64,000 bases of DNA from an uncultured Eubacteriales bacterium. GTDB taxonomy: Bacteria > Bacillota > Clostridia > Christensenellales > Aristaeellaceae. The notes beneath the pieces are model-generated. The model saw nothing but the letters and a program-made list of their open reading frames with translations. It searched no databases and was not told the DNA's origin. Numbering within the stretch: the first letter of the stretch is position 1; each line of letters opens with the position of its first letter. The stretch covers positions 107,211 to 171,210 of the forward strand of contig ONCV01000002.1 of NCBI GenBank assembly GCA_900316415.1, given 5' to 3'. Position numbers and translations under genes: made by a program. Of the stretch, positions 9,838 to 25,552 are shown in pieces.

Positions 9838-9860
9838 GAGAAGGCAAGCCCGGCCGGGGC

Positions 9861-10859: not shown

Positions 10860-10892
10860 GATCGTTCTCCTGTCATGATGATGCGCGGCCGG

Positions 10893-12446: not shown

Positions 12447-12531
12447 CTAACCTTCGTCCGCAGAATCCCCTGCGCCTCCTGTAGTTCGTTTCCGTCCCGG
12501 GCTTTCCTGTTTATCGAAAGCCGTACAGTTC

Positions 12532-12560
12532 AGTTTATCCCCCGCCTGTGTATTTGTCAA
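12532..12560 (-). promoter_or_regulatory. sigmaA-type promoter for the oxidoreductase/radical SAM unit
   Basis: TTGACA-17nt-TAAACT on the minus strand in the intergenic gap. Confidence 0.75.
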
Positions 12561-12619
12561 GGAAATGACCGCATGGGCGGGCCGCGGGCGCCGCGTTCCG
12601 CCCGGCGGCGGGGATCCCG

Positions 12620-12970
12620 TTACTTTTCCGCGCGGAGCCATTCCTCCCAGATCTCCGGCTGATAGCCCACCGTGACCCGGTTTCCGCTGCGAACCACCGG
12701 CGTCCGCAGCAGCCAGGGCGCCTCCTGAATCGCGGGAATCAGCAGGCTCTCCTGAACATAATAGCAGGCCGGGTGCTCCTTCACCTTCCGGTCCTCCCGG
12801 TCGATCAGCTTCTCCATGCCCACCTGCTGCAGCATCAGGCGGATTTCCCGCTCTCCCAGGGGATGCTTCTTCAGGTCCATCATCTGCACGGGGATCCGCC
12901 GTTCCCGGAAAAAGCGCTCCGCCTTCTGGACATCGAAATTCTTCTTGGCGCTGTAGATCTGGATGTTCAT
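12620..12970 (-). CDS. ArsC/Spx family protein
   Basis: 116 aa; KNFDVQKAERFF, LLRTPVVR..VTVGY. Confidence 0.8.
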   Translation of the reverse strand: MNIQIYSAKKNFDVQKAERFFRERRIPVQMMDLKKHPLGEREIRLMLQQVGMEKLIDREDRKVKEHPACYYVQESLLIPAIQEAPWLLRTPVVRSGNRVTVGYQPEIWEEWLRAEK

Positions 12971-12974
12971 GGCC

Positions 12975-13943
12975 CTACGCCCTCCCGTTGCGAATGTCCC
13001 GGCCCTGCAGCTGCAGCATCAGCACGTTGCGCCGGTCCGTGAGCCGGGACGCGATCCGCTCCGTATACCGTCCCTTCAGTTCCTCCGGGTTCAGGTTGGT
13101 GCTGATGACGGTGGCCAGGTTCCGGCGCTGCCGCTCGTTGATCAGGTTGAACAGCTGTTCGACGGTCACGTTCTGCATCAGCGGCTCGCTGCCCAGATCG
13201 TCCAGCATCAGCACCTCCGCGCCGATCACCTCTTCCAGGCCATCCTCCCCCTCGAAGTAGCTCCTGCGGGCCGTTTCCAGAAACTGATAAGCGGAAAGCA
13301 GCAGCACCTGGGTCCCCCGCCCGATCAGCCGGCTGGCCATGGCGTGCAGCAGGAAGGTTTTTCCCAGTCCGGATTTCCCGGAAAGCACCAGATCCCGCGG
13401 ATTCTGGCGGGGATACAGGTCCACCCATTTTTCGCACGCCTCCCGAACCAGCAGGATGCTTTCCCGCTGTGTAAAGGACGAGCCCTCCGTGCGCTCCTCC
13501 GGAAACAGCTCCGGATCAAAGTTCTCAAAGGTTTCCCGGCCGTCCTCCGGCAGGCCGATGGCCGCGCGCAGCTTTTCCTGATATCTTCTCTGCACGCAGC
13601 TGCACCGCTCCCGCACCCGGTCGCCCACAAAGCCCGTATCCCGGCACAGGGCACAGGAATAAACCGGCGAAAGATAATCCGCCGGATATCCGTGCTTTTC
13701 CAGGGCGAGATGAATTCTTCCGGAGATTTCCTCCATGCGTTCCGGCAGGTTTCCCGCGGCCGCGTGCCCCGCCAGGATGCCGCGCATGCCCTGCTGAATC
13801 AGCGCTTCCCGGCGCTCCATCAGCGCCGCGATCTCCGGCTCCCGGCTTCGGATCGTCTGCCGATGCTCCCGAGCGATGATCTCATTCCGCCGCCGCTGAT
13901 CCTCCAGATCCTGAAGCACCTGGTTCATCAGATCCTCTCGCAT
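12975..13943 (-). CDS. dnaC: DnaC/DnaI-like helicase-loader ATPase
   Basis: CALCRDTG..CSC Zn motif, SGKSGLGKT Walker A, LMLDDLG Walker B, ISTNL, ERIASRL; directly after dnaD. Confidence 0.85.
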   Translation of the reverse strand: MREDLMNQVLQDLEDQRRRNEIIAREHRQTIRSREPEIAALMERREALIQQGMRGILAGHAAAGNLPERMEEISGRIHLALEKHGYPADYLSPVYSCALCRDTGFVGDRVRERCSCVQRRYQEKLRAAIGLPEDGRETFENFDPELFPEERTEGSSFTQRESILLVREACEKWVDLYPRQNPRDLVLSGKSGLGKTFLLHAMASRLIGRGTQVLLLSAYQFLETARRSYFEGEDGLEEVIGAEVLMLDDLGSEPLMQNVTVEQLFNLINERQRRNLATVISTNLNPEELKGRYTERIASRLTDRRNVLMLQLQGRDIRNGRA

Positions 13944-15423
13944 GTAACAGTTCTCCCCTTCTCAGTCTTTCCAGCACCTCGTCCATGTTTTCCCCGGCGC
14001 CGGAATAATCCCGCTGACTGTATTGCTGCGCAGTCACCGTTTTCGCCGGCCGCGCGGGAGAATCCCCCCGGGCGCCTCCCGCCTGCTTTCTCCATTCCGC
14101 CATCGCCGCAGCCAGCTGTTCCTTCTCCCGGATCCCCCGGTCCGCGTAGTCCCGCAGGATTTTGTCCAGATAGAGCATGGGCCGTTCCTTCCCGCAGGCG
14201 GCTTCGGCGGCCATCAGAATGGCCTCCCGGCTGAAGCCCAGCTCGTTTTCCCAGGCGCTGACCATCTCCCGATCCTTCGCGCCCAGGCGATTCTTCATGC
14301 CCCAGATTTTGCGAAGCTCCAGCAGCAGCTCGCTCTGGGCGCGGAAACGGCGGATATAGTTTTCCGCGTCGCCCGCCGTCAGAATGCCCTTCTGCCGCCA
14401 GGACTCCAGCAACTTTTCCACATCCTCCGTCCGGCCCTCGGAGCGGCCGCATTCCCGGGCGGCCATCAGGATCAGCTGCTCCGGATAGGCCGCGGTCATC
14501 CCGCGGTACCACTGCAGCCCCTCCTCGCTGACGGTGCCGCCGCCCAGGGCCTTCAGCACCCGGCGCAGGCCTTCCGCCTCCTCCCGGCTGCGCAGGATCT
14601 CCCGCTCGTCAATCGGGCCGCCCGGAGCCGTCCGCTCCCGAATATTCCGCAGAATGCCGTCCAGGAAGCCCATGGAGGGATCCCCCTTCGCGGTTTCCGC
14701 GCAGGCCTCCTCCACCGCCTCGGGCGTGAAATGCCATTCCATGATCCATTTCCGGTAGAGCGCCAGCTGATCCTGGGAGGGCGGGTTCCGCCGCCCCAGC
14801 CGCTTCAGCACGGCCCGGGTCCCCTGATAGATCGCCTGATCCCGGGTCAGGAATTCCTCCGTCTCCTCCACCGTGCGGATGTTTTCCTTCGCCATTTCCA
14901 GCGCCACCTGTTCCGCGCTCTGGATCGTGAAATTCTTTCCCTTGTTCCGCTCCATATGCTTGAGCAGCATCAGCACCGCTTCCGGAGGCAGCTTCAGCTC
15001 CTCGACCCAGTCATAGCAGGTGCGGATCTCGCTGCCGTGAAGGCGCCGGCCGTTGTCGAACACGCTGTACAGGCTCTCCGCGAAGGCCTCGTATTCCGGA
15101 TCGAGCTGATTCACCGGCGCCAGGACCGCCTGCTGGCGCAGGCTCCGGTACTCATACTGGACCGGATCGTCGCTGATCCGGCGGACCAGGCCCCGCCGCT
15201 CCCAGTACCGATAGGCCCGGGCAATCTCCTCCCCGCTCAGGTTCAGCTCCTGCGCCATCCGCTCCAGGCTCATGTCCTTCTCCGGATGATAGCACCGCAT
15301 CAGACCGTACAGGTACACCCGCACGTCATCTCCCCGAGCCGCGGGAAGATACTCCTGAATAAACTGGTTTTCCACCGGCGTCACGTCAAACATCGCGTAC
15401 CGGTCCTCAAATCCGAAAAGCAC
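13882..15423 (-). CDS. dnaD: DnaD domain protein (replication initiation)
   Basis: TPVENQFIQEYLP.A.GD.V.VYLY N-terminus; repeated DnaD-type motifs (YLDKIL, FLDGILRN); GTG start with AAAGGAGG RBS. Confidence 0.85.
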   Translation of the reverse strand: MLFGFEDRYAMFDVTPVENQFIQEYLPAARGDDVRVYLYGLMRCYHPEKDMSLERMAQELNLSGEEIARAYRYWERRGLVRRISDDPVQYEYRSLRQQAVLAPVNQLDPEYEAFAESLYSVFDNGRRLHGSEIRTCYDWVEELKLPPEAVLMLLKHMERNKGKNFTIQSAEQVALEMAKENIRTVEETEEFLTRDQAIYQGTRAVLKRLGRRNPPSQDQLALYRKWIMEWHFTPEAVEEACAETAKGDPSMGFLDGILRNIRERTAPGGPIDEREILRSREEAEGLRRVLKALGGGTVSEEGLQWYRGMTAAYPEQLILMAARECGRSEGRTEDVEKLLESWRQKGILTAGDAENYIRRFRAQSELLLELRKIWGMKNRLGAKDREMVSAWENELGFSREAILMAAEAACGKERPMLYLDKILRDYADRGIREKEQLAAAMAEWRKQAGGARGDSPARPAKTVTAQQYSQRDYSGAGENMDEVLERLRRGELLHARGSDEPGASGSGGSAAAE

Positions 15424-15482
15424 GCGGGCTTCCTCCTTTCCGCTGCGGTTTTTCCCGTTCCGGTCACCCCTCGCCGCAATGG

Positions 15483-15830
15483 CTACAGCAGCACCGCCAC
15501 CGCGATGCCGGCCAGGATCAGCGCGGTTCCCAGAATCTTTTTCAGGGTCATCCTTTCATGAAAGATGATCACATCAAACGCAAAGATAAACAGATATCCC
15601 GTGGTTTCCAGCAGCGTTCCCTGGGAAACCTCCAGACCGCGGTAGGAATACACCGTCAGGAACGTCGATACCACAAAGATCAGATAGGCGCCGATGACCA
15701 GGGGATTCAGGTATTCCCCCAGGCGGGTTTCATGATTCTTCATGGCCGCCTTCTTCAACATCACCTGGGACACGGCGCTGATAAAGGTGCTGAAGACAAT
15801 GATGCCGGCATAAAGAAGCTTTTCATTCAT
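15483..15830 (-). CDS. Small 4-TM EamA/SMR-type transporter (ArnE/ArnF-like)
   Basis: 115 aa, four hydrophobic segments, SQVMLKKAA, FHERMT.KKILG. Confidence 0.75.
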   Translation of the reverse strand: MNEKLLYAGIIVFSTFISAVSQVMLKKAAMKNHETRLGEYLNPLVIGAYLIFVVSTFLTVYSYRGLEVSQGTLLETTGYLFIFAFDVIIFHERMTLKKILGTALILAGIAVAVLL

Positions 15831-16206
15831 GGCGCGCTTCCTCCCGGTTTCCGCCCCGGTCCTCCAGCGCGAAGAGCACCACGCCGCAGACGATCAGCAC
15901 CATGCCTGCCAGCCGCGCCGGGGTGATCGTTTCCCCGAAGATCACCCGGCCCCAGAAGACGCCCCAGACCACGACCACCGCCTTGTTGGCATAGGCCTGA
16001 AAGAGCGGAAAGACCTTCAGCACCTGCTGCCAGCCCAGCGCGTAAATCCCCAGGCAGAGAAAAATCAGCAGATAGCCCACCAGAAACTCCGCGCTGAGAA
16101 AGGCCGCGCCGGCGATTTTGCGGCTGATCACGCTGGTCAGCGAATAGATCAGGAACAGAACATGCATAAGCAGCAGCATCCCGGCCTTTCGTCCGGTTCC
16201 CTTCAT
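15823..16206 (-). CDS. Small 4-TM EamA/SMR-type transporter (partner subunit)
   Basis: 127 aa, four TM, WQQVLK.FPL..AY, IFGETIT; overlaps its neighbour. Confidence 0.75.
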   Translation of the reverse strand: MKGTGRKAGMLLLMHVLFLIYSLTSVISRKIAGAAFLSAEFLVGYLLIFLCLGIYALGWQQVLKVFPLFQAYANKAVVVVWGVFWGRVIFGETITPARLAGMVLIVCGVVLFALEDRGGNREEARHE

Positions 16207-16565
16207 GGACGGTCCTCCTCCCGGGCTTCCTCCCGTTCCTTTTTCTCCCGGATCGCCACCGTCTGGGCGGTTTCCGTGGTCTGCCGGTGCAGGTCGGAAA
16301 TCCGCTGATCCATCAGGAAAAGCTTGATGATCAGGAGAAAAATGACGATCAGGAACACCAGATTCGCCGCGCTCAGAACCCCGATCCGGGCGGCCAGCCC
16401 GGTCACCAGATCCGGCAGCAGCCCCATCAGCACCAGGATCAGGCTGAAAACCAGCCAGAACACGGAATCCTCCGTCCGCATCCGGCTTTTCCGTACGCGC
16501 AGCAGCACATACAGCGCCGTCAGAAGCGATCCGGCAATCAGCAAAATCCGCATGGTCAGCGACAT
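16203..16565 (-). CDS. DUF2304 family membrane protein (GacJ-like partner of polyprenyl-P-sugar synthase)
   Basis: 120 aa, 3 TM, RVRKSRM..EDSVFW, P..ANLVF; follows a short GT2. Confidence 0.8.
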   Translation of the reverse strand: MSLTMRILLIAGSLLTALYVLLRVRKSRMRTEDSVFWLVFSLILVLMGLLPDLVTGLAARIGVLSAANLVFLIVIFLLIIKLFLMDQRISDLHRQTTETAQTVAIREKKEREEAREEDRP

Positions 16566-16566
16566 C

Positions 16567-17262
16567 TTACAGCTTCTCCTTCCTGAACACCCACTGCAGG
16601 ATAAAGATGTTCATCCCCATCTGGGCCATGTACCGGAAGGATCTTCCCAGGCTCAGATAGCTCTCCCCCGCCTGTCTTTCCCGGATGGACACCGGGCATT
16701 CCCCGACCCGGGCGCCGCTGCGGATCAGGAACGCCAGGGTGTCCGGCTCCGGCCGGGCGGTGGCGGAGAATGCCATGTGCTCCATCACCCTTCGGCCATA
16801 CAGCCGCATGCCGCAGGTGGGATCCGTGATCCTCTTTCCCGTCGTCAGGCGGATGGCCCGCTCAATCATCGCGTTCCCCGCCATCCGAAGGCTTCGGGGG
16901 CGCTTTGCGGTCAGAAACCGGGATCCGATCACCAGGTCCAGCCCGTCCCGCTCCATCTTTTCCTTCATCGGCAGGATAAAGGCGGGATCATGCTGCCCGT
17001 CCGCGTCCAGCTGCATCACGGCGTCATAATCCCGCTCCCAGGCGTACCGAACCCCCGTCTGGAACGCGCCGGTCAGCCCCAGGTTGGTCGGAAGATCCAG
17101 CAGCGGATACCCCTCCCGCCGGCAAAGCTCCCCCGTTCCGTCCCCGGAGCCGTCATTCACGATGATAAAATCGACGCCCGGCGCCTTCTCCCGGATTTCC
17201 CGGATCGTTCCGGGCAGACTCTCCTCCTCGTTGTAGGCCGGTATGACCACCAGCAGTCTCAC
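16567..17262 (-). CDS. GT2 glycosyltransferase, Dol-P-Man synthase-like (polyprenyl-phosphate sugar synthase)
   Basis: IPAYNEE, VNDGSGD, NLGL.GA.QTG, QLDADGQHDP, ITDPTCGMR. Confidence 0.88.
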   Translation of the reverse strand: MRLLVVIPAYNEEESLPGTIREIREKAPGVDFIIVNDGSGDGTGELCRREGYPLLDLPTNLGLTGAFQTGVRYAWERDYDAVMQLDADGQHDPAFILPMKEKMERDGLDLVIGSRFLTAKRPRSLRMAGNAMIERAIRLTTGKRITDPTCGMRLYGRRVMEHMAFSATARPEPDTLAFLIRSGARVGECPVSIRERQAGESYLSLGRSFRYMAQMGMNIFILQWVFRKEKL

Positions 17263-17280
17263 GTCGTTCCCCCCGTCCGT

Positions 17281-18378
17281 TCAAAAACGATTCAACACGT
17301 CCAGCACGTACTGAATCTGCTCCTCCCGCATTCCAGGATACAGCGGAAGGCTGATCTCCGTTTCCGCCAGCTTCTCCGCCGCCGGGAAGTCTCCCCGCCG
17401 GTATCCCAGATCCCGGTACGCCTTCTGCAGATGCACGGGAATCGGATAATGAACCTGCGCGTGGATGCCCAGGTCCTCCAGCCGGGAGAGGAGCGCGTCC
17501 CGCCGGTCCGTCAGCACCGGGAAAATATGGTATCCGTTTCCCGCGTCCTTCTTCAGCAGGCGGATTTTGGGATTCCGGAGCCCGGCCTCGTAGAGGGCCG
17601 CGATCCTTCTGCGCTCCGCCACCCACTCCTCCAGATGGGGAAGCTTGGCCAGCAGCAGCGCCGCCTGCAGCTCATCCAGCCGGGAATTCACGCCCACTTC
17701 GTCATGATGGTATTTCTGCGTGGATCCGTAGTTCGCCAGGGAGCGCACCCGCTCCGCCAGCTCCGGATTGTCCGTCGTCACGCAGCCCGCGTCCCCCAGA
17801 GCTCCCAGGTTCTTTCCCGGATAGAAGGAGAAGCCCGCCGCGTCCCCCAGGGCGCCGGCCCGCCTTCCGTTCCGCGTCGCGCCGTGGGCCTGCGCGGCGT
17901 CCTCCACCAGCATCAGCCCATGCGCCCGGGCCAGGGCTTCAAAGCCCTCCATCTCCGCGATCCGGCCGTAGAGATGCACAGGCATGATTGCCTTCGTCCG
18001 CGGGGTGATCCGCTTTTCCGCCCCCTCCGGAGTCATCAGCGCGGTTTCCGGATCCGGATCCACCAGCACCGGGACGGCTCCCACATAAGAGATCGCCAGC
18101 ACACTGGCAATAAAGGTGTTGGCGGGCACCAGCACCTCGTCCCCGGGGCCGATCCCCCGGGCCAGCAGAATCAGGCGGAGCGCGTCCAGGCCGTTGCCCA
18201 CCCCCACGCAGTATTTCGCGCCGCTGTAGGCGGCAAAGGCCTGCTCAAAGGCCCGGTCCTCCTCCCCCAGGATGAACCAGTCCCGATCCATCACCCTTTT
18301 CCAGGCTGCCTCCAGCTCCGGGCGAATCGCGCTGTGAATCGTCCGGAATTCCTGATAGGGCACCTTCCATTCCGTCAT
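17281..18378 (-). CDS. DegT/DnrJ/EryC1/StrS PLP aminotransferase (FdtB/QdtB-like)
   Basis: VGVGNGLDAL, PVHLYG, EDAAQAHGA, FSFYPGKNLGALGDAG, NSRLDELQAA. Confidence 0.92.
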   Translation of the reverse strand: MTEWKVPYQEFRTIHSAIRPELEAAWKRVMDRDWFILGEEDRAFEQAFAAYSGAKYCVGVGNGLDALRLILLARGIGPGDEVLVPANTFIASVLAISYVGAVPVLVDPDPETALMTPEGAEKRITPRTKAIMPVHLYGRIAEMEGFEALARAHGLMLVEDAAQAHGATRNGRRAGALGDAAGFSFYPGKNLGALGDAGCVTTDNPELAERVRSLANYGSTQKYHHDEVGVNSRLDELQAALLLAKLPHLEEWVAERRRIAALYEAGLRNPKIRLLKKDAGNGYHIFPVLTDRRDALLSRLEDLGIHAQVHYPIPVHLQKAYRDLGYRRGDFPAAEKLAETEISLPLYPGMREEQIQYVLDVLNRF

Positions 18379-18421
18379 GTCTCCGTCTCCTTCCGCGCAT
18401 CCCGGGTTCTCCGCGATGTTC

Positions 18422-19876
18422 TCATGCCGGCGCCTTTTTCCCGCCTCGTCCCGCCCGGATTCTCCGGATCAGCGCTCCCGCTCCGTTCAGAAGGATCGCC
18501 GCGTCCAGCGTCATCAGCAGATACAGGGAGGGATAGAAGTACCGGAAATCATAGGCCGGCGTATCCAGCAGGTACGCAAGATAGTAGAACGCCGCCATGC
18601 CCAGCACCAGGGCGTTTTTCCTTCGGAGGGCTCCCTTTCGGAAATGCTCCGCGGCCGCCAGCAGCACGGTGATCAGGAAGGTCAGCCAGGGATGCTGGGT
18701 ATAGGGTCCCAGCCCCCGGATCGTCGCGATGACGGAATCAAAGAAGGCCTTCCGCTGGGAGGAATCGTTCATGCCGAATTCCGCCATCTGATCCCATCGG
18801 TCGTAGCTGTATTCGGAATCGTCCAGCAGGCCCTGAATGCCCAGGGAGCGCATCATCACATCCCATTTGACGCCCCACCAGATTCCCGGCTTTTCCATCA
18901 TCAGCTGCAGGTATTTGCGCACCGCGGTCATCGTCGCTCCGGGAGCGGACAGCTGCCCGGTGCCCAGATGATCCCCCCACATGAAGCTGCCGGCGGTGTA
19001 TTCGTTGCTCTCCTCCAGGGCGGCCCGGGTGGCGCCTTCCCCGCCGATTTCATCCAGATAGTCCCGGTATTCCGCCCGCTCCTCCTCCGGCATCCGCTGA
19101 ATGGCCGTCAGCATCTCCCACACGATACCCACGGAGGCCGTCGTCTGGGAATGCAGATCAAAAATCCAGGGTACCGCCTTGGTCATCAGCAGCCCGATGA
19201 TCAGCGCAAGGGCCAGGAAGCCCTTCCGGGCCTTCTGCAGATTGCAGCGGAGCAGGGCGAAGCCCAGCACCGGAAGAATGGTCAGGGCATTGGTCCGGTA
19301 CCCGAAGCAGACGAAGGAGGAAAACGCAACCAGCAGCCCCTCCAGAATCCGGTCCCCCCGGCATTTTTCCTCCCCGGCGTGCCAGTAAAGCAGCATCAGG
19401 GCAGTCATCCCGGTCAGGCAGCCGATGCCCGCCTCGTAATAGACGGACATGCCGTAAATCAGCGGACAGCAGGCGAACAGGAACGCCTGCAGCTTCCGGT
19501 GCTTCGGATTCAGCTCCCGGATCAGCAGAAAGGTGACCGCGAAGAAGGCAAAGGCCTGTCCGAAGGTGTACAGCGCCACGTGCCCCGTCAGGCCCCGGCT
19601 CATGGCCATGAAGAAGGACGGAATGATCGTGAAGGCGTTGTTGGTGTCCACGGGCATCCGCATGCCCTTCAGCGTGTTGACCATGGCGTGCAGCACCGCT
19701 CCGCTGGTCGCCACGCGCACATAGGAATCGGAATACCAGATTCCGGGATAGGAAATCAGCGTGCACAGCAGGGCCAGCACGCCGCTTCCGCACCAGACCG
19801 GCAGATTCCGTGCCGCGCACCGGACATAATAGCCCTCCCGGGAAAAGGCCGTTCCGATCCCCCGCTTCGCCTTCAT
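18422..19876 (-). CDS. Polytopic membrane protein, putative GT-C (DUF6020-like)
   Basis: YPGIWYSDSY acidic loop after TM1, R.NA motif, C-terminal DFRYFYP; ~10 TM. Confidence 0.6.
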   Translation of the reverse strand: MKAKRGIGTAFSREGYYVRCAARNLPVWCGSGVLALLCTLISYPGIWYSDSYVRVATSGAVLHAMVNTLKGMRMPVDTNNAFTIIPSFFMAMSRGLTGHVALYTFGQAFAFFAVTFLLIRELNPKHRKLQAFLFACCPLIYGMSVYYEAGIGCLTGMTALMLLYWHAGEEKCRGDRILEGLLVAFSSFVCFGYRTNALTILPVLGFALLRCNLQKARKGFLALALIIGLLMTKAVPWIFDLHSQTTASVGIVWEMLTAIQRMPEEERAEYRDYLDEIGGEGATRAALEESNEYTAGSFMWGDHLGTGQLSAPGATMTAVRKYLQLMMEKPGIWWGVKWDVMMRSLGIQGLLDDSEYSYDRWDQMAEFGMNDSSQRKAFFDSVIATIRGLGPYTQHPWLTFLITVLLAAAEHFRKGALRRKNALVLGMAAFYYLAYLLDTPAYDFRYFYPSLYLLMTLDAAILLNGAGALIRRIRAGRGGKKAPA

Positions 19877-20325
19877 CCGCCGATTCCTTTCTCCGGATCC
19901 TCTTCCGGGACGCCTTCCCGCTTTCCCCGCTCCGCCACCCAGGAAAGGAAGGCGCCATAATCCCGGATATAATCGGACTCGTCGTACAGCTGGTCCGCCA
20001 GAACCATCAGCACCGCGTCATCCGAAAAATCATGCATCACCCGCCAGATATCCGAGGACAGGTACAGCCCCCGGTTCGGCCGGTCCAGCACCACGGTCGC
20101 CTTCTCCGTCCCGTTGTCCAGCGAGATTTTGCAGCTTCCCCGGACACAGATCAGCACCTGCTTCAGCGTTTTGTGCGCGTGAAAGCCCCGGCTGATGCCC
20201 GGCTGGGTATTGTACATGAAATAGCAGCGGCGGATCGTGAAGGGAATGTTGCGGTTTTCCTCCAGCGCGATCAGGATTCCCCGCTCGTCCCCGTGCTCCT
20301 CAAAATCAAAGGTTGTAATCTCCAC
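19873..20325 (-). CDS. dTDP-4-keto-6-deoxyglucose 3,4-ketoisomerase (FdtA/QdtA cupin)
   Basis: GTG start with GAGGAGG RBS; DERG.L..LE..IPF.IRR.Y, RGFHAHK, Y.ESDYIRDY..F; the ORF-track N-terminal extension is spurious. Confidence 0.9.
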   Translation of the reverse strand: MEITTFDFEEHGDERGILIALEENRNIPFTIRRCYFMYNTQPGISRGFHAHKTLKQVLICVRGSCKISLDNGTEKATVVLDRPNRGLYLSSDIWRVMHDFSDDAVLMVLADQLYDESDYIRDYGAFLSWVAERGKREGVPEEDPEKGIGG

Positions 20326-20345: not shown

Positions 20346-21722
20346 TTATTTTCCCATCAGCACCCCGAATACGCCCATTTCCGTCAGGTCGTCCAGAATC
20401 GCCTGGCAGGCCGTGGTGGGGATGCCCACCAGAAAGCGGATCATTCCCTGCAGCAGGGGCTCCACCAGATCCGGCAGGAAGGACTGAATCTGCGTATCGT
20501 TGGACACGAACAGATCCAGCATGTTCTCCGGCTCCTCCTCCGCGCGGATGTCCGCCAGCACCTCCCCTTCGCGGGGCAGCAGGCTTCCCTCCAGCGTCAG
20601 CATCTCCGCTCCGGGCTCCATCTCCACGGTGGGTTTCCGGACCGTGACGGTCACGTGCCCGTTTTTCTCCCCGGTCAGATACGCGGAGAAGCCGGCGTTC
20701 GGAAGCAGGGTTCCGGTCAGGTTCAGGCTCAGAAGCGAGCTGCAGTCCATGGGCCAGACCGCCGGGAAGGAGGTCAGGGAGGCCTGCAGGTTCACCAGAT
20801 CCGGCTGCGCCAGCTCCTGCCCCAGAATCTGGGCGTTCAGCCGGCAGGTATACCAGTTTCCGTCCCGGTTTTCCGAAACGGAGAAAGCCGGAAGATACCC
20901 GGTTTGCATCTGCGGAAGAAACACCTCCCGCGAGGCGGAGGACGCATCCAGCTCCTCCCGGAAGATATCCCCGGTGGCCGTACGCCAGACCGTTTCCCCT
21001 TCCTGCTGCAGAATCCGGATTTCCCTGTCCTGCGCGATCTGCCGCGTGAAGTAATCCGGAATCTCCGCCAGGAATCCCCGGAAGGCTTCCTCCGCGTCCG
21101 AATCCTTGCATAGCGCGTCCGTCAGCATTTTCAGGGGCTCATCCCGCTCCAGCCGGTATTCCCAGCATTCCCGGAGGAAGGTCACCGCCTCCGGCGGAAT
21201 CACATCCTGCTCATCCCGCTGGGTCACCATCCAGCCCCAGTCAATCAGCGGCAGGTTCAGGCAGTATTTCCAGGTATAGGGGAACAGCAGCGCCGGATAC
21301 TGCAGCGGAATCCCCAGATGCTCGGACATCTTCGTGCAGAACCCCAGCATGGAGAAGTTGCTCAGCTTCACGGTCTTGTCCCCGAGCAGGCCGGAAGTCA
21401 GGTACATCAGATCCTCCGAGCCCCGGATCCGCAGATCAAAGGCGCCGGAGGGCGAGGCCTTCGGGATGATGGAAAGGTTCAGGTCAAACAGATCCCCTTC
21501 CTTCGCGGTCAGGATCGAGCCCTTCACCTCCATGGCGTCCAGCAGGTCCGCGTATCCCTGGATTCGTTCCGCGGTCTGATCCGTGAAGGCGTCCGTGTGC
21601 ATGAACATGACGAAGTCAAAATCGTATCCGGTTCCGGGAATCCCTTCCCCCTCTTCCGCGTCCGCGGAGAGAATCCCCGCCAGAAGACAAAGCAGCAGCG
21701 CCAGGGATAACAGCTTCTTCAC
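20346..21722 (-). CDS. Exported hypothetical protein
   Basis: GTG start with GGGAGG RBS; signal peptide MKKLLSLALLLCLLAGILSADA; acidic mature part, no family recognised. Confidence 0.65.
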   Translation of the reverse strand: MKKLLSLALLLCLLAGILSADAEEGEGIPGTGYDFDFVMFMHTDAFTDQTAERIQGYADLLDAMEVKGSILTAKEGDLFDLNLSIIPKASPSGAFDLRIRGSEDLMYLTSGLLGDKTVKLSNFSMLGFCTKMSEHLGIPLQYPALLFPYTWKYCLNLPLIDWGWMVTQRDEQDVIPPEAVTFLRECWEYRLERDEPLKMLTDALCKDSDAEEAFRGFLAEIPDYFTRQIAQDREIRILQQEGETVWRTATGDIFREELDASSASREVFLPQMQTGYLPAFSVSENRDGNWYTCRLNAQILGQELAQPDLVNLQASLTSFPAVWPMDCSSLLSLNLTGTLLPNAGFSAYLTGEKNGHVTVTVRKPTVEMEPGAEMLTLEGSLLPREGEVLADIRAEEEPENMLDLFVSNDTQIQSFLPDLVEPLLQGMIRFLVGIPTTACQAILDDLTEMGVFGVLMGK

Positions 21723-21936: not shown

Positions 21937-22884
21937 ATGTCCCTGATTTCCGTGATTCTGCCTTCCTACAATGAGGAAGAAAACATTCACCGGGCCGTGG
22001 AACGGCTGTCGGAAACCCTTTCCCGGGAAGAGGTGGACTGGGAGCTGGTGTTCGTGAATGACGGCTCCCGGGACGGGACCTGGCAGCGGATCACGGAGGA
22101 GGCGAAGGGCAATCCGCATATTACCGGCGTTTCCTTCTCCCGAAATTTCGGGAAGGAGGCCGCAATCATGGCCGGCCTGGCCACCGCGAAGGGCGACTGC
22201 TGCGTGGTCATGGACTGCGATCTGCAGCATCCGCCGGAAACCGTGGTCGAGATGCTGCATCTGTGGCAGCAGGGGTACGAGGTGGTGGAAGGCGTCAAAC
22301 GCAGCCGCGGCCGGGAGAGCCGCCTCCACGCCCTCCTCGCGGGAACCTTTTACCGGATCATGAGCTCCGCCACCCGAATTGATATGTCCCGCGCTTCCGA
22401 TTTCAAGCTGATGGATCGGAAGGCGGTCAACGCCCTGCTCTCCCTGCCGGAGAAGAACGCCTTCTTCCGCGCCCTGTCCTCCTGGGTCGGCTTTAAAACC
22501 ACCAGCGTGGAGTTCGACGTGCGGGAGCGGGAGGCGGGCACCTCCAAGTGGAGCTCCCGGAGCCTGGCCGCCTACGCGATCCGGAATATTACCTCCTTTT
22601 CGTCCGCTCCGCTGCAGATCGTCACCTTCCTGGGCCTGATCATGCTGCTGCTGGCCGTTGCCCTGAGCATTCAGACCCTGATCCGTTATTTTTCCGGCAC
22701 AGCAGTGGAGGGCTTCACCACCGTGATCCTGCTGATCCTGCTGATCGGCAGCCTGCTGATGATCTCCCTGGGCATCATCGGCTATTACCTGGCACAGATC
22801 TACAAGGAACTGAAGGGACGGCCCCGTTACCTGATCTCCGAGGTGATTTCCGGGGGAACCGAAAATCCGGATGGGACGAAGTGA
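21937..22884 (+). CDS. GT2 glycosyltransferase, GtrB/YkcC-like undecaprenyl-P sugar synthase
   Basis: LPSYNEE, VNDGSRD, SRNFGKEAA..AGL, MDCDLQHPP, two C-terminal TM, GYYLAQIY.E.K.RP.Y. Confidence 0.9.
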   Translation: MSLISVILPSYNEEENIHRAVERLSETLSREEVDWELVFVNDGSRDGTWQRITEEAKGNPHITGVSFSRNFGKEAAIMAGLATAKGDCCVVMDCDLQHPPETVVEMLHLWQQGYEVVEGVKRSRGRESRLHALLAGTFYRIMSSATRIDMSRASDFKLMDRKAVNALLSLPEKNAFFRALSSWVGFKTTSVEFDVREREAGTSKWSSRSLAAYAIRNITSFSSAPLQIVTFLGLIMLLLAVALSIQTLIRYFSGTAVEGFTTVILLILLIGSLLMISLGIIGYYLAQIYKELKGRPRYLISEVISGGTENPDGTK

Positions 22885-22932
22885 CGCCAGCGCTGTTCCG
22901 GAGGCTGAGGCGGGGAAGGAAGGAGTTTTTCG

Positions 22933-24396
22933 GTGGCATTTAACACGTATGTTTTTATCTTCGCCTTCCTGCCCCTTTTTCTGCTGGCCTGTTTTACCCT
23001 CGGCCGCAGGGGGCTCCGCGTCCGGAAAGCGTTGATCATTCTGGGAAGCGCGGTCTTCTATCTGGCAGGAGGATGGCAGAGCGCGGCGGTGCTCGCCGTC
23101 AGCCTCGCGGTCAATTATGCCCTGGCCTTCCTGCTGCGGGGGAAGCCCGGGAAGCGGGGGCCGCTGGTGCTGGGGCTGCTGTTCAACGCCGGTCTCCTCT
23201 TCGGCTTCAAGTATCTGGACTTCGCGGCGGACAGCCTCCGCCTGTTCGCGGGGGAAAGCCCCGCCCGGCTGAACCTCTGGATGCCCCTGGGCATCAGCTT
23301 CTTCACCTTTCAGCAGATCATGTACCTTGTCTCCGTGAAGCGGGGCGACATCGAGGTCCGGCTTTCGGATTATCTGGCCTTCGTGCTGTTTTTTCCCAAG
23401 CTGATCATGGGGCCGCTCATGGAGCCGAAGGAGTTTCTCGCGCAGCTGAACGATTCATCCCGGGTCCGCCCGGACTGGGGAAATCTGGCCGCCGGGCTGA
23501 AGCTGTTCAGCCTGGGGCTGTTCAAAAAGGTGCTGCTGGCGGATACCTTCGCCCGGGCCGTGGAATGGGGCTTCGTCCACGGCGTCACCACCGCCGCGGG
23601 GCCACCCACGGCAACCTCCTACGACCTGCTGCTGGTCATGCTCTGCTATACCTTTCAGATCTACTTTGATTTCAGCGGATATTCCGATATGGCCATGGGC
23701 GTCGCCCGGATGATGAACCTGGAGCTGCCCCTGAATTTCGATTCCCCCTACCGGACCGTGTCCGTCCGGGATTTCTGGCACCGATGGCATATGACCCTGA
23801 CGTCCTTTCTGACAAAATACATCTACTATCCGCTGGGCGGAAGCCGGCGGGGAACGGTCCGCACCTGCGCGAACATCCTGCTGGTCTTTCTGATCAGCGG
23901 GCTCTGGCACGGGGCCAGCTGGACCTTTGTCCTCTGGGGCCTGCTCCACGGGCTGCTGCAGGTGCTGGAGCGGCTCTGCGAAAAGGGGCTGAAGCGGATT
24001 CCGGCCTTTCTCCGCTGGGGAATGACCTTTCTTTCCGTGAATCTGCTGTGGATGCTGTTCCGCGCGGAAAGCGTCCGGGACTGGCTGGGGATGATGGGCC
24101 GCATGCTCAGCCTGAGGTACCGGGTCATCAGCGACGGCCTGATCCGAACCTTCACCCTCCCGGAAGGAACCTTTCTGTCGCGGAGCCTGCACCTGACCCA
24201 TCTGACCGACCGTCTTCCCGGCCTCTGGATGGGGCTCTTTCTCGGCGCGGCGTTCCTGATCTGCCTGCTTCCCGGCAACAGCGCGCGGCGCATGGAAAAG
24301 CAGACTCCCTGGAACCTGATCCTCTGCGCGTTTCTCTTCGTCTGGGCGGTGCTGTGCCTGGGCGGAGAATCCCTGTTTGTCTACAATCAGTTCTGA
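22933..24396 (+). CDS. MBOAT family O-acyltransferase (AlgI/DltB-like)
   Basis: PLGISFFTFQ, LGLFKK.LLAD, QIYFDFSGYSDMA, NF.SPY, FW.RWHMTL, SGLWHGA. Confidence 0.93.
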   Translation: MAFNTYVFIFAFLPLFLLACFTLGRRGLRVRKALIILGSAVFYLAGGWQSAAVLAVSLAVNYALAFLLRGKPGKRGPLVLGLLFNAGLLFGFKYLDFAADSLRLFAGESPARLNLWMPLGISFFTFQQIMYLVSVKRGDIEVRLSDYLAFVLFFPKLIMGPLMEPKEFLAQLNDSSRVRPDWGNLAAGLKLFSLGLFKKVLLADTFARAVEWGFVHGVTTAAGPPTATSYDLLLVMLCYTFQIYFDFSGYSDMAMGVARMMNLELPLNFDSPYRTVSVRDFWHRWHMTLTSFLTKYIYYPLGGSRRGTVRTCANILLVFLISGLWHGASWTFVLWGLLHGLLQVLERLCEKGLKRIPAFLRWGMTFLSVNLLWMLFRAESVRDWLGMMGRMLSLRYRVISDGLIRTFTLPEGTFLSRSLHLTHLTDRLPGLWMGLFLGAAFLICLLPGNSARRMEKQTPWNLILCAFLFVWAVLCLGGESLFVYNQF

Positions 24397-24412
24397 GAAA
24401 GGAGGCGGCCCC

Positions 24413-25552
24413 TTGAAGAAGATGAAAAAAGGATGGGTTTCCGGTTTTCTGCTGCTGGTCGTTTGCGCGCTGGGAGCCGCCGCCCTCCTGGTCTTCCGGG
24501 TGGATCCCTTCTTTCATTACCACGCTCCGGATACAGACCGGTACTTTTATCCGCTGGACAACCAGCGCAGCCAGAATGACGGTATCCTCCGCCATTTTGC
24601 CTATGACGGTCTCATCACCGGAACCTCCATGACCGAAAACTGCAGCGCCTCCGAAGCGGAGCGTCTCTTTGGCGGCCGCTTCGTCAAGGTCTGCTACGAG
24701 GGCAGCACCTTTTATGAAACCGCCGCTGCCATCGCGAAGGCCGCCGCCCTGAATCCGGAGCTGAAAACGGTCATCCGCGGGCTCGATATGGATATGCTCC
24801 AGGAAAAGGCGGACCGGCGGCGGACGGATCTGGGCGATTTCCCGGATTATCTGTATGACAGCAACTGGTTCAACGACCTGGAATACCTGCTCAACCGGGA
24901 TGTGCTCTTCACCCGGGTTCTTCCCATGCTGCAGGAAAGCCGGCGCCCCGGCTTCACCCCGGGCATCACCTCCTTCGATGATTATTCGAACTGGATGGGG
25001 GATGGATACGGCTTCGGCTCCCACGCGGTCTTTCCCGAGGGGCTGACCGATCTCGGGCCGCAGACCCCCGTAGCGCTGACGCAGGAGGAGGCGGACACGA
25101 TCCGGGAGAACATCCGGCAGAACGTTGTGCTCCTGGCCCGGGAGCATCCGCAGATCACCTTTTACTGCTTTTTCCCACCCTACAGCGCCGCCTGGTGGCT
25201 GGCCTGGCGGAACGGGGACGGGATCGCGAAAAAAGTGGAAGCGGAGCGGATCGCCATTGAGGAGATGCTGACCTGCGGCAATATCTGGCTGTTCTCCTTC
25301 AACAGCTGTCCGGAGATCACCACGAATCTGAATTTTTACAAGGATATGAATCATTACGGGGAATGGATCAACAATCTGATTCTCCGGCGGATGGCCGCGG
25401 GGAAAAACCGGCTCACCCGGGAAAACTATGCCGCCTGCCTGGAGGCGGAATATGAATTCTATCAGAACTACGACTATTCCCGGCTGATCCAGCAGGAGGA
25501 TTATGCCGACGATACACAGGCCGCGGAGGCCGCGATGCGGCTGGAGCCGTAA
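24413..25552 (+). CDS. Membrane-anchored SGNH-like protein (DltD/AlgJ-type acyl-transfer partner)
   Basis: TTG start after AAAGGAGG; N-terminal TM; GTS motif and C-terminal KDMNHY (DxxH); follows the MBOAT gene. Confidence 0.65.
   Translation: MKKMKKGWVSGFLLLVVCALGAAALLVFRVDPFFHYHAPDTDRYFYPLDNQRSQNDGILRHFAYDGLITGTSMTENCSASEAERLFGGRFVKVCYEGSTFYETAAAIAKAAALNPELKTVIRGLDMDMLQEKADRRRTDLGDFPDYLYDSNWFNDLEYLLNRDVLFTRVLPMLQESRRPGFTPGITSFDDYSNWMGDGYGFGSHAVFPEGLTDLGPQTPVALTQEEADTIRENIRQNVVLLAREHPQITFYCFFPPYSAAWWLAWRNGDGIAKKVEAERIAIEEMLTCGNIWLFSFNSCPEITTNLNFYKDMNHYGEWINNLILRRMAAGKNRLTRENYAACLEAEYEFYQNYDYSRLIQQEDYADDTQAAEAAMRLEP

What the first reader, a model, noticed from the sequence alone, without database searches (positions are those of the whole stretch)
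15483..20325. Arn-like module for a 3-amino-3,6-dideoxyhexose in a monoderm
Seen: a coupled run of FdtA/QdtA ketoisomerase -> GT-C-like protein -> FdtB/QdtB-like aminotransferase -> short DPM-like GT2 -> DUF2304 -> two different 4-TM EamA/SMR proteins. No N-acetyl or N-formyl transferase is present in the module. Established: FdtA+FdtB give dTDP-Fuc3N (QdtA/B give Qui3N). In arnBCADTEF, an aminotransferase, a GT2, a heterodimeric small flippase (ArnE/F) and a GT-C (ArnT) put a cationic amino sugar on lipid A. Inference: an analogous system adds Fuc3N/Qui3N, possibly with a free amine, to a Gram-positive surface polymer via undecaprenyl-P. This could alter surface charge and cationic-peptide resistance.
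Basis: partly seen in the sequence, partly recalled or inferred. Interest (0 to 1): 0.62.

Follow-up and report, generated by a model that had tools for sequence, protein, structure and literature searches.

The report
Lipid-linked amino-sugar surface decoration operon
A ruminant-gut Clostridia bacterium has a tightly packed operon that most likely makes a rare 3-amino sugar, loads it on a membrane lipid carrier, flips it outward and attaches it to a cell-surface polymer; the scheme is known, but the final enzyme is new and no N-acetylating enzyme is present.

Summary
Seven coupled minus-strand genes lie at 15483-20325. In order they are an FdtA-type ketoisomerase, a 484-aa polytopic protein, a QdtB/FdtB-type C-3 aminotransferase, a short GT2, DUF2304, and two unlike 4-TM EamA half-proteins. 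An eighth conserved gene, a 458-aa secreted protein, lies just upstream.

"Arn-like" is right as logic but wrong as membership. The GT2+DUF2304 pair is the GacI/GacJ (S. pyogenes) or PpgS/Rv3632 (M. tuberculosis) type of polyprenyl-phosphate sugar synthase. The 484-aa protein models confidently as a GT-C fold. It belongs to a small unnamed family of about 280 clusters.

In eight related species the close subfamily always co-occurs with FdtA, usually in the same shuffled module. The EamA pair is linked to FdtA in four species and is replaced by GtrA in others. For the sugar, the closest precedent is Xanthomonas wxc region 3, which makes Fuc3NAc side branches.

The free-amine idea is unresolved. 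No module carries an acyltransferase, and this genome has no QdtC. However, five of eight relatives encode a QdtC orthologue 4-14 kb away, and all nine genomes have a YdjC deacetylase.

Verdict: a new variant of a known kind, of moderate interest.

The parts
20346..21722 (-). Conserved 458-aa secreted or membrane-anchored protein of unknown function ('U458'). It is probably the first gene of the operon; whether it belongs to the pathway is uncertain.
   Evidence: It has an N-terminal hydrophobic segment. There is no Pfam or NCBIfam hit. It has 39 homologue clusters, all unannotated. It is syntenic with the module in L001, L002, L006, L038 and L057. The AF2 model has pLDDT 86 but no meaningful fold match. 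The 92%-identical relative calls the gene at 457 aa.
19873..20325 (-). FdtA/QdtA-type dTDP-4-keto-6-deoxyglucose 3,4-ketoisomerase, 150 aa
   Evidence: PF05523 5.3e-48. Best solved relative is A. thermoaerophilus FdtA 2pa7 at 6.5e-42, with QdtA at 1.5e-30. The RGFHAHK His pair is conserved. It is the only FdtA in the genome.
18422..19876 (-). 484-aa polytopic membrane protein ('MEM484'), a GT-C-fold glycosyltransferase of an unnamed family. It is the proposed transferase that moves the sugar from polyprenyl-P to the surface acceptor.
   Evidence: There is no Pfam, NCBIfam or PDB sequence hit. The AF2 model has pLDDT 90.7. The meaningful Foldseek PDB hits are all GT-C enzymes (Pmt4, STT3, Pmt1/2, ArnT, AftB, ALG3; probability 0.9-1.0, best E 8.7e-3, TM at most 0.45). 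Asp50 is invariant in YPGIWYSDSYVR, just after TM1. Family members give weak hits to DUF6044, O_anti_polymase and PMT_2. The family has 280 clusters among 1.84 billion representatives. One relative is fused to GtrA.
17281..18378 (-). QdtB/FdtB-type PLP-dependent dTDP-3-keto-6-deoxyhexose C-3 aminotransferase, 365 aa
   Evidence: PF01041 2.5e-118. The top solved relatives are all C-3 aminotransferases: QdtB 3frk 4.5e-121, DesV 2oga and WlaRG 5u1z. C-4 enzymes score lower. The SFYPGKNLG lysine motif is visible in the translation.
16567..17262 (-). Short soluble GT2 (231 aa) of the GacI/PpgS type, a polyprenyl-phosphate sugar synthase
   Evidence: PF00535 9e-25. The best NCBIfam hit is PpgS at 2.6e-25, below its cut-off. 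The only PDB relatives are ArnC, DPMS and GtrB. There are no TM segments. A DAD..QHD motif is present in the translation.
16203..16565 (-). DUF2304 small membrane protein with three TM segments, a GacJ/Rv3632-type activator of the GT2
   Evidence: PF10066 1.1e-25. Three TM segments. It always lies directly after the short GT2 in relatives. GacJ and Rv3632 stimulate GacI and PpgS (bioRxiv 10.1101/180810).
15823..16206 (-). EamA/SMR-like 4-TM half-transporter 1 (127 aa), a candidate flippase subunit
   Evidence: EamA 2e-4. ArnE 1e-4, below its cut-off. Orthologues paired with half 2 lie next to FdtA in L006, L038, L055 and L056.
15483..15830 (-). EamA/SMR-like 4-TM half-transporter 2 (115 aa), a candidate flippase subunit
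   Evidence: EamA 6.4e-9. ArnF 1.4e-3, below its cut-off. Four TM segments. It has no significant similarity to half 1. It is paired with half 1 in four other genomes.

Best explanation
The operon encodes an extracytoplasmic ('three-component'-type) glycosylation pathway for a 3-amino-3,6-dideoxyhexose. The proposed steps are below.

1. RmlA and RmlB, encoded elsewhere in the genome, make dTDP-4-keto-6-deoxyglucose.
2. The FdtA-like isomerase moves the keto group to C-3. A galacto product is slightly favoured, but the C-4 configuration is unresolved.
3. The QdtB/FdtB-like aminotransferase makes dTDP-3-amino-3,6-dideoxyhexose.
4. The short GT2, activated by its DUF2304 partner as GacI is by GacJ, transfers the sugar to undecaprenyl phosphate at the inner face of the membrane.
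5. The two EamA half-proteins, acting as a heterodimer like ArnE/ArnF, flip the lipid-linked sugar.
6. The 484-aa GT-C-fold enzyme transfers it to an unidentified cell-envelope acceptor, either a wall polysaccharide or teichoic-acid-like polymer or a surface protein.

What is shown here: the gene content, the family and fold assignments, the conserved linkage, and probable transcription in rumen samples.

What is inferred: the lipid intermediate, the flipping, the acceptor and the N-acylation state.

For this genome I slightly favour loading of the unacylated amine (about 0.4), because no QdtC/FdtC-type enzyme exists here. N-acetylation by an unrecognised enzyme is nearly as likely.
For: **Family and fold assignments**
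- Isomerase, aminotransferase, GT2 and DUF2304.
- GT-C fold of the 484-aa protein.
- An invariant Asp sits in the first outer loop, after a K/R-rich N-terminus.
- The experimental precedent is GacJ/Rv3632 stimulating GacI/PpgS, and GacL (GT-C) using the Und-P-sugar.

**Precursor supply**
- RmlA and RmlB lie at C19:31001-33125.
- They are adjacent to the module in L002, L006, L012, L055 and L057.

**Linkage**
- All 8 genomes with a MEM484 homologue of at least 54% identity have a closely similar FdtA. Only 2-3 of 21 genomes with remote homologues do, and 23 of 400 in the class sample do. Fisher p = 3e-10, uncorrected for phylogeny.
- The genes sit together in different orders in the window, L038, L001, L002, L006, L010 and L057.
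- In 14 other FdtA-bearing genomes of the class, DUF2304 is never within 48 kb of FdtA.

**Flippase**
- The EamA pair is contiguous with FdtA in L056, 2.6 kb from DegT-FdtA in L055, and inside the module in L006 and L038.
- GtrA takes its place in L001, L002, L010 and L057.
- One remote MEM484 homologue is fused to GtrA.

**Independent partner for the neighbouring GT2**
- The neighbouring GtrB-like GT2 (21937-22884) has its own GtrII-like GT-C at 25598-27151.

**Expression**
- Bovine and sheep metatranscriptome contigs cover the module and cross the gene junctions EamA2-EamA1-DUF2304-GT2, GT2-DegT and MEM484-FdtA.
Against: - There is no biochemical evidence. The GT-C fold match is weak in E-value (best 8.7e-3, TM at most 0.45).
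- The curated NCBIfam cut-offs for PpgS, ArnC, ArnE and ArnF are not reached.
- All characterised polyprenyl-P amino-sugar synthases (ArnC, PpgS, GacI) take N-acylated donors (my own knowledge, plus for GacI and PpgS). No acylating enzyme is assigned here.
- The acceptor is unknown.
- Metatranscriptome contigs may include DNA.
- In some relatives (G404, G402, G406) the module is split over several loci.
Confidence: 0.7

Rival explanations
1. The machinery is the same, but the sugar is N-acetylated in the cytoplasm by an unlinked acetyltransferase. The lipid-linked donor is then Und-P-Fuc3NAc or Und-P-Qui3NAc, as in Xanthomonas wxc region 3 and as with GacI, PpgS and ArnC. The conserved YdjC (NaxD-family) deacetylase may then unmask the amine on the carrier.
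For: - A true QdtC orthologue (PDB QdtC 3fs8, 1.5e-87) is present in 5 of 8 relatives, 4-14 kb from module genes. Three of these genomes have a single FdtA.
- A YdjC orthologue is present in 9 of 9 genomes. It lies on the FdtA contig in 6 of them and 4 kb from the module in G407 and G408.
- All characterised lipid-P amino-sugar synthases use N-acylated donors (established knowledge; for GacI and PpgS).
Against: - This genome (97% complete), G401 and G403 have the full module but no QdtC orthologue or remnant.
- The places where QdtC sits in relatives are intact here without it.
- The remaining LbH and GNAT proteins are a PglD/NeuD-type enzyme inside a diNAcBac-like cluster, a LacA-like O-acetyltransferase, a GlmU-C-like protein, CysE and a generic GNAT.
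- The only formyltransferase matches are two proteins of 204 and 338 aa, whose sizes fit PurN and Fmt; this identity was not tested.
- No module in any genome carries an acyltransferase, whereas at least 10 of 16 conventional FdtA loci of the class do, adjacent or fused.
Confidence: 0.35
2. The 484-aa protein is not a sugar transferase that uses a monophosphate donor. It is a Wzy-like polymerase or a ligase, and the amino sugar enters a conventional cytoplasmically built repeat unit.
For: - Ten of 38 family members hit PF01901 O_anti_polymase weakly (best 8e-4), and one hits Wzy_C.
- In L006 a Wzx-like gene (Polysacc_synt) and further GT2s lie inside the locus.
Against: - The top fold matches are GT-C enzymes, not Wzy or WaaL.
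- The protein is consistently adjacent to polyprenyl-P-type GT2s (GacI-like or GtrB-like) and to GtrA or EamA candidates, even in remote relatives.
- No priming phosphoglycosyltransferase or chain-length regulator lies in the module.
Confidence: 0.1
3. The genes are a chance mosaic in a large glycan island. The GT2/DUF2304, the EamA pair and the 484-aa protein would then serve a different sugar from the one made by FdtA and the aminotransferase.
For: - The window is a glycan island of at least 80 kb with several GT2 and GT-C sets.
- In G404 and G402 the parts lie in separate loci.
- L012 has RmlA-RmlB-GT2-DUF2304-MEM484 without FdtA or DegT.
Against: - The genes overlap or nearly abut in the window.
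- The same set recurs in different orders in seven loci.
- The close MEM484 subfamily co-occurs with FdtA in 9 of 9 genomes.
- The FdtA-DUF2304 linkage is absent elsewhere in the class.
Confidence: 0.05

Closest known systems
GacI/GacJ/GacK/GacL of Streptococcus pyogenes (GlcNAc side chain of the group A carbohydrate)
   Same: A short GT2 makes an Und-P-sugar. A DUF2304 three-TM partner lies immediately downstream and stimulates it. There is a dedicated flippase candidate. A GT-C enzyme adds the sugar to a wall polysaccharide of a monoderm.
   Different: The sugar there is GlcNAc from UDP-GlcNAc, with no dedicated sugar-synthesis genes. The flippase candidate is Wzx-like (GacK), not an EamA pair. 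GacL belongs to a different GT-C family. Here two dTDP-sugar enzymes are embedded in the operon.
PpgS (Rv3631) / Rv3632 / Rv3779 of Mycobacterium tuberculosis (GalN on arabinogalactan)
   Same: PpgS is the best NCBIfam match of the GT2. Rv3632 is the DUF2304 activator. A GT-C enzyme transfers the sugar. The end product is an amino sugar with a free amine (last two points from my own knowledge).
   Different: The donor there is UDP-GalNAc loaded as the N-acetyl form, and the carrier is decaprenyl-P. The PpgS model scores 89 bits against a cut-off of 370, so this GT2 is not an equivalog.
Xanthomonas campestris / X. hortorum wxc region 3 (wxcK, wxcL, wxcM, wxcN, wxcO)
   Same: It has the same sugar family. 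A FdtB-type aminotransferase, a GT2 and a FdtA-type isomerase are clustered with membrane proteins, and they give Fuc3NAc side branches that are added after the rhamnan main chain.
   Different: It is a Gram-negative O antigen. The isomerase is fused to an N-acetyltransferase (WxcM), so the sugar is N-acetylated. There is no DUF2304, no EamA pair, and different membrane proteins. The lipid-linked intermediate has not, to my knowledge, been shown.
Arn pathway (ArnB, C, A, D, T, E, F) for Ara4N on lipid A
   Same: The logic is the same: a DegT aminotransferase, a polyprenyl-P GT2 (ArnC is the best solved relative of the GT2), a pair of unlike 4-TM half-transporters (weak ArnE/ArnF hits) and a GT-C enzyme (ArnT is among the fold hits).
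   Different: There is no ArnA-type formyltransferase/decarboxylase and no ArnD in the module. The sugar is a dTDP-hexose aminated at C-3, not a UDP-pentose aminated at C-4. There is no lipid A. All Arn equivalog cut-offs are missed by a wide margin.
FdtA/B/C and QdtA/B/C pathways of S-layer glycans (Aneurinibacillus, Thermoanaerobacterium)
   Same: The isomerase and aminotransferase are the closest solved relatives.
   Different: Those pathways include the N-acetyltransferase (FdtC or QdtC) and feed cytoplasmic glycosyltransferases. Here QdtC is absent from the genome, and the sugar enzymes are wired to a lipid-carrier GT2.

Membership tests
Three-component extracytoplasmic glycosylation (Gtr / GacIJKL / CsbB-GtcA-YfhO kind) | A GT2 that makes a polyprenyl-monophosphate sugar | tested here: inconclusive
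   Sequence supports it. The only solved relatives are ArnC, DPMS and GtrB, and the best NCBIfam hit is PpgS. No curated cut-off is reached, and the activity is untested.
Three-component extracytoplasmic glycosylation (Gtr / GacIJKL / CsbB-GtcA-YfhO kind) | A GT-C-fold transferase encoded with the GT2 | tested here: met
   The AF2 model has pLDDT 90.7. The meaningful Foldseek matches are all GT-C enzymes at probability 0.9-1.0, although E is at best 8.7e-3. The protein is adjacent to or near the GT2 in seven loci.
Three-component extracytoplasmic glycosylation (Gtr / GacIJKL / CsbB-GtcA-YfhO kind) | A small membrane protein or proteins as flippase candidate | tested here: met
   Two 4-TM EamA halves are present. 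They are linked to FdtA in four other genomes and are exchanged for GtrA in others. Flipping itself is untestable here.
GacI/GacJ- or PpgS/Rv3632-type synthase pair | A DUF2304 three-TM protein immediately downstream of a short TM-less GT2 | tested here: met
   PF10066 scores 90 bits against a cut-off of 25.5. Three TM segments are predicted, and the GT2 has none. The two genes are 1 nt apart. The pairing is kept in all relatives.
PpgS equivalog (NF058614) | Score at or above the curated cut-off (370 bits) | tested here: not met
   The score is 89.2 bits.
Arn pathway | ArnC, ArnE and ArnF equivalogs at the curated cut-offs | tested here: not met
   ArnC scores 52 against 529, ArnE 22.5 against 92, and ArnF 19.1 against 99.
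Arn pathway | N-formylation (ArnA) followed by deformylation on the carrier (ArnD) | tested here: not met
   There is no formyltransferase in the module. The genome's only PF00551 matches are two proteins of 204 and 338 aa, sizes that fit PurN and Fmt; their identity was not tested. No PF01522 gene was seen in the module.
Arn pathway | Lipid A as acceptor | tested here: not met
   There is no LpxC in a genome that is 97% complete.
FdtA/QdtA 3,4-ketoisomerase (PF05523) | Pfam gathering score and the catalytic His pair | tested here: met
   The score is 162.6 bits against a cut-off of 23. RGFHAHK aligns with the His49/His51 region of FdtA. Whether the product is gluco or galacto cannot be told.
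QdtB/FdtB C-3 aminotransferase | DegT fold, and closest to characterised C-3 rather than C-4 enzymes | tested here: met
   QdtB scores 407 bits, DesV 347 and WlaRG 338, against 185 for ArnB and 229 for perosamine synthase.
Complete Fdt/Qdt pathway (A+B+C) | A QdtC/FdtC-type N-acetyltransferase in the genome | tested here: not met
   There is no orthologue in this genome. The best tblastn hit has 24% identity, to a NeuD-like LbH protein. Orthologues are present in 5 of 8 relatives.
Xanthomonas wxc region 3 type | An isomerase fused to, or accompanied by, an acetyltransferase (WxcM), next to the GT2 and aminotransferase | tested here: not met
   The isomerase is a 150-aa single domain. There is no acetyltransferase in the module.

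The most novel reading that the evidence does not exclude
The GT2/DUF2304 pair loads an unacylated dTDP-3-amino-3,6-dideoxyhexose directly onto undecaprenyl phosphate. The new GT-C family then places a cationic sugar on the wall of a monoderm. This would happen without the acylate-then-deacylate cycle that every characterised lipid-linked amino-sugar pathway uses (Arn, PpgS, Francisella Flm/NaxD, Bordetella Lgm). The EamA pair would be the first ArnE/F-like heterodimeric flippase assigned in a Gram-positive-type envelope.
Probability: 0.35. Interest if true: 0.7.

Novelty: new variant of a known kind. Interest (0 to 1): 0.5.

Why it matters
**A new GT-C family.** If the reading holds, it defines a small GT-C glycosyltransferase family with no Pfam, CAZy-style or NCBIfam name. 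It also extends three-component surface glycosylation to 3-amino-3,6-dideoxyhexoses in monoderm gut bacteria.

**Evidence on flippases.** EamA half-transporter pairs and GtrA replace one another in the same pathway. This natural experiment bears on the still unproven identity of lipid-linked-sugar flippases.

**A defined comparison for the acylation question.** Some genomes carry the same module with QdtC and others without it. That contrast can test whether a polyprenyl-P sugar synthase can take a free-amine donor.

**Abundance and expression.** The organism recurs across bovine and sheep gut metagenomes: 20 runs from 11 studies hold 65-100% of the stretch's sampled words. The genes appear to be expressed in rumen and sheep-gut samples. 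The sugar is therefore likely a real surface feature relevant to phage, host and peptide interactions in the rumen.

Tried and rejected
- **Sequence searches with the 484-aa protein.** Pfam, NCBIfam and PDB sequence searches returned nothing. Only the fold gave a class.
- **U458.** The fold search gave only spurious porin-like matches (TM at most 0.3), so no function was assigned.
- **Promoters and terminators.** The scan gave no usable operon boundaries. The only strong promoter match drives the divergent GtrB-like gene.
- **My own gene caller.** The greedy caller picked antisense ORFs in these high-GC loci. I dropped it for the relatives and used homology mapping and precomputed gene calls instead.
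- **Other routes to N-acylation in this genome.**
  - The only formyltransferase matches are two proteins of 204 and 338 aa, sizes that fit PurN and Fmt.
  - The hexapeptide proteins belong to a PglF/E/D/C-like cluster, or are a GlmU-C-like protein or CysE.
  - The GNAT hit is generic.
- **Outer membrane.** A hidden outer membrane was rejected because there is no LpxC.
- **Second sugar pathway.** The 2,3-dehydratase pathway seen in relatives is absent from this genome.
- **Literature.** A search for FdtA + GT-C + undecaprenyl found no paper.
- **FdtA versus QdtA.** I considered assigning the stereochemistry from similarity scores but rejected this as unsafe. The isomerase is nearer FdtA and the aminotransferase is nearer QdtB.

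Full report
**1. What is in the sequence**

The finding's coordinates and gene list are correct. Seven minus-strand genes run from 20325 down to 15483.

| Gene | Coordinates | Size |
|---|---|---|
| FdtA-like isomerase (GTG start, GGAGG upstream) | 19873-20325 | 150 aa |
| Polytopic protein, 'MEM484' | 18422-19876 | 484 aa |
| DegT aminotransferase | 17281-18378 | 365 aa |
| GT2 without TM segments | 16567-17262 | 231 aa |
| DUF2304, three TM segments | 16203-16565 | 120 aa |
| EamA half 1 | 15823-16206 | 127 aa |
| EamA half 2 | 15483-15830 | 115 aa |

Starts and stops overlap as ATGA at the FdtA/MEM484 junction, by 4 nt at DUF2304/EamA1 and by 8 nt at EamA1/EamA2. Elsewhere the genes lie 1-43 nt apart. 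Pfam confirms FdtA (5e-48), DegT (2.5e-118), GT2 (9e-25), DUF2304 (1e-25) and EamA (2e-4 and 6e-9). The two EamA halves have no significant similarity to each other.

Upstream, 20 nt before FdtA, ends a gene for a 458-aa protein with an N-terminal hydrophobic segment (20346-21722). It has no family assignment.

The genome is 2.53 Mb in 44 contigs, 60.7% G+C and 97% complete. It has no LpxC, so 'monoderm' is reasonable. Its nearest database relatives are uncultured Clostridia from ruminant guts.

**2. What the parts are**

- **Isomerase.** The best solved relative is FdtA of A. thermoaerophilus (2pa7, 6.5e-42), with the RGFHAHK histidine pair conserved. QdtA is more distant at 1.5e-30.
- **Aminotransferase.** The best solved relatives are QdtB (3frk, 4.5e-121), DesV and WlaRG, all C-3 aminotransferases of dTDP-3-keto-6-deoxyhexoses. 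C-4 enzymes score far lower. The pair should therefore make a dTDP-3-amino-3,6-dideoxyhexose. Whether it is Fuc3N or Qui3N cannot be told from similarity.
- **Precursor.** RmlA and RmlB are at C19:31001-33125. They lie directly beside the module in several relatives.
- **GT2.** The only solved relatives are ArnC, dolichyl-P-mannose synthase and GtrB. The best NCBIfam model is PpgS, the mycobacterial polyprenyl-P-GalNAc synthase, although far below its cut-off.
- **DUF2304.** This is the family of GacJ and Rv3632. [quoted passage not shown] Rv3632 stimulates PpgS (bioRxiv 10.1101/180810).
- **MEM484.** It has no sequence-level family. An AlphaFold model built from 38 homologues is confident (pLDDT 90.7, pTM 0.90). 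Its meaningful Foldseek matches in the PDB are all GT-C enzymes: Pmt4, STT3, Pmt1/2, ArnT, AftB, ALG3, AftD and Emb. Probabilities are 0.9-1.0, but E-values are weak (best 8.7e-3) and TM-scores low (at most 0.45). An invariant Asp50 lies in YPGIWYSDSYVR directly after TM1, which follows a K/R-rich N-terminus. This is the position expected for the first outer loop of a GT-C enzyme. Individual family members give weak hits to DUF6044, O_anti_polymase and PMT_2. A profile search of 1.84 billion representatives found only 280 clusters, so the family is small and unnamed.

**3. Comparative evidence**

A scan of one genome per species found 31 loci with MEM484 relatives, nearly all labelled Clostridia or Bacilli (one MAG is labelled Bacteroides) and mostly from ruminant or rabbit gut samples.

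*Co-occurrence with FdtA.* All eight genomes whose homologue is at least 54% identical also carry a closely similar FdtA (about 1e-48). Only two or three of the 21 genomes with remote homologues do. In a sample of the class, 23 of 400 genomes do. Fisher p is 3e-10, uncorrected for relatedness.

*Gene order.* In the window, L038, L001, L002, L006, L010/L011 and L057, the genes FdtA, DegT, short GT2 and DUF2304 sit together, usually with MEM484, but in different orders. That argues for functional rather than accidental linkage.

*Specificity of the wiring.* In 14 other FdtA-bearing genomes of the class, DUF2304 is never within 48 kb of FdtA. Wiring this sugar to a GacI/J-type synthase is therefore specific to this clade.

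- The pair is contiguous with FdtA in L056.
- It lies 2.6 kb from DegT-FdtA in L055.
- It lies inside the module in L006 and L038.
- Where it is missing, a GtrA-family gene lies beside the module (L001, L002, L010, L057). L006 and L055 have both.
- One remote MEM484 relative is fused to GtrA.

This exchange is the best available argument that the EamA pair is the carrier-lipid flippase candidate.

*Remote relatives and the neighbouring GT2.* Remote MEM484 relatives sit directly after GtrB-like GT2 genes, which again fits a GT-C enzyme that uses polyprenyl-P-sugars. The GtrB-like GT2 that diverges from the operon in the window (21937-22884) has its own GtrII-like GT-C at 25598-27151. It therefore need not be MEM484's partner.

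**4. Expression**

The stretch is present in 20 gut, metagenome and fermentation DNA runs from 11 studies, most of them labelled bovine, sheep or simply gut. Contigs from four bovine and sheep metatranscriptomes match at 95-100% identity and cross gene junctions:
- 15177-16884 spans EamA2, EamA1, DUF2304 and part of the GT2.
- 16919-17698 spans the GT2/DegT junction.
- 19764-20067 spans the MEM484/FdtA junction.

This fits a polycistronic transcript, but DNA carry-over cannot be excluded.

**5. The N-acylation question**

*For a free amine.*
- No acetyl- or formyltransferase lies in the module, either in the window or in any of the seven module loci examined.
- As a control, I took 16 conventional FdtA loci from the same class. 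At least ten carry an LbH or GNAT acyltransferase, adjacent or fused to FdtA.
- This genome has no QdtC/FdtC-type gene or remnant.
- The positions that hold QdtC in relatives are intact here without it.
- The remaining candidates are a PglD/NeuD-type enzyme inside a PglF/E/D/C-like cluster, a LacA-like O-acetyltransferase, a GlmU-C-like protein, CysE and a generic GNAT. The only formyltransferase matches are two proteins whose sizes fit PurN and Fmt.

*Against a free amine.*
- A true QdtC orthologue (3fs8, 1.5e-87) exists in five of the eight relatives, 4-14 kb from module genes. Three of those genomes have a single FdtA.
- All nine genomes keep one YdjC-family gene, the family of the Francisella NaxD deacetylase (from memory). 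It lies 4 kb from the module in G407 and G408, and on the same contig in six genomes.
- Every characterised lipid-linked amino-sugar pathway loads an N-acylated sugar (for GacI and PpgS; Arn and Flm from my own knowledge).

I therefore treat the free amine as about even odds for this genome. It is not established.

**6. Comparison with known systems**

The closest mechanistic relatives are GacIJKL of S. pyogenes and PpgS-Rv3632-Rv3779 of M. tuberculosis.

The closest for the sugar is Xanthomonas wxc region 3: wxcK aminotransferase, wxcL GT2, wxcM acetyltransferase/isomerase fusion, wxcN and wxcO. It gives Fuc3NAc branches that are added after the rhamnan main chain (PMC12573098; PMC4878081).

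Arn is a good analogy but fails every membership test that could be run.

The present module differs from all of these in four ways:
- dedicated dTDP-3-amino-sugar enzymes are wired to a GacI/J-type synthase;
- it has an ArnE/F-like pair in a monoderm;
- it has an unnamed GT-C family;
- it has no acyltransferase.

**7. Verdict**

The module is a new variant of a known kind. I put 0.7 on the lipid-linked three-component mechanism and about 0.35-0.4 on a donor that is never acylated. The acceptor is unknown. Interest is 0.5.

Noticed in passing
window 20346-21722 (-): A 458-aa protein with an N-terminal signal or anchor segment has no family or fold match (AF2 pLDDT 86). It belongs to a narrow family of 39 clusters. 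It travels with the module in six genomes, usually just after a nucleotidyltransferase gene and before GtrA or FdtA. Its function is unknown; it could be an accessory factor or the acceptor.
   Followed up: partly
window 21937-27151: This is a second, divergent glycosylation set. It contains a GtrB/PgfS-like GT2 with two C-terminal TM segments (21937-22884), an MBOAT/DltB-like acyltransferase (22933-24396), an unassigned 391-aa ORF (24377-25552) and a GtrII-like GT-C on the other strand (25598-27151). The GT2-MBOAT trio also lies near the module in L001 and L038.
   Followed up: partly
L060 3030-13802 (G407) and L061 (G408); also L058, L059: Relatives carry a second FdtA-like/DegT pair. It sits next to an NDP-hexose 2,3-dehydratase, a GFO-type reductase, a GtrB-like GT2 and a divergent DUF2142 GT-C. 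This looks like a lipid-linked route for a 3-amino-2,3,6-trideoxyhexose, a sugar type known mainly from antibiotics. The window's genome lacks the dehydratase.
   Followed up: partly
own genome C25:182111-183004 (about 11 kb beyond the window's end); L010 18996-19889; L012 15748-16713: A single YdjC-family (NaxD-like) putative deacetylase is conserved in all nine genomes of the clade. It always lies in the same glycan region, and next to GtrA and the module in G407 and G408. Its substrate is unknown.
   Followed up: partly
L056 2378-8113 (G404) versus window 7946-15830: In G404, FdtA-EamA1-EamA2 runs straight into the flavoprotein / radical SAM-SPASM / DUF2142 unit. In the window, a DnaD-like gene (13882-15423), a DnaC/IstB-like ATPase (12975-13943) and an ArsC/Spx-like gene (12620-12970) lie between them. 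Replication-type genes therefore sit in the middle of a glycan island.
   Followed up: no
own genome C18:81790-87987 (L037 1790-7987): Another candidate lipid-linked module contains an ATP-grasp enzyme, a DegT aminotransferase, two GtrB-like GT2 genes and a 669-aa fusion of nucleotidyltransferase, cytidylyltransferase and PEP mutase. This suggests a phosphonate-bearing surface glycan.
   Followed up: no
own genome C19:584-8147 (L035): This is a PglF/PglE/PglD/PglC-like set: a CapD-type 4,6-dehydratase, a LegC-family aminotransferase, a NeuD/PglD-type acetyltransferase and a small phosphoglycosyltransferase. It looks like priming with a diNAcBac-type sugar.
   Followed up: partly
window 63418-64000 and beyond (C25:170628-171839): A second short GT2 (243 aa, 3e-15 to the module's GT2) is followed by a GtrA-family gene. 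It is cut by the window's end.
   Followed up: no
L052 6420-8048 (G336): In an unrelated Clostridia genome, FdtA lies next to a 542-aa DUF6056 membrane protein. This may be another uncharacterised membrane glycosyltransferase tied to this sugar.
   Followed up: no
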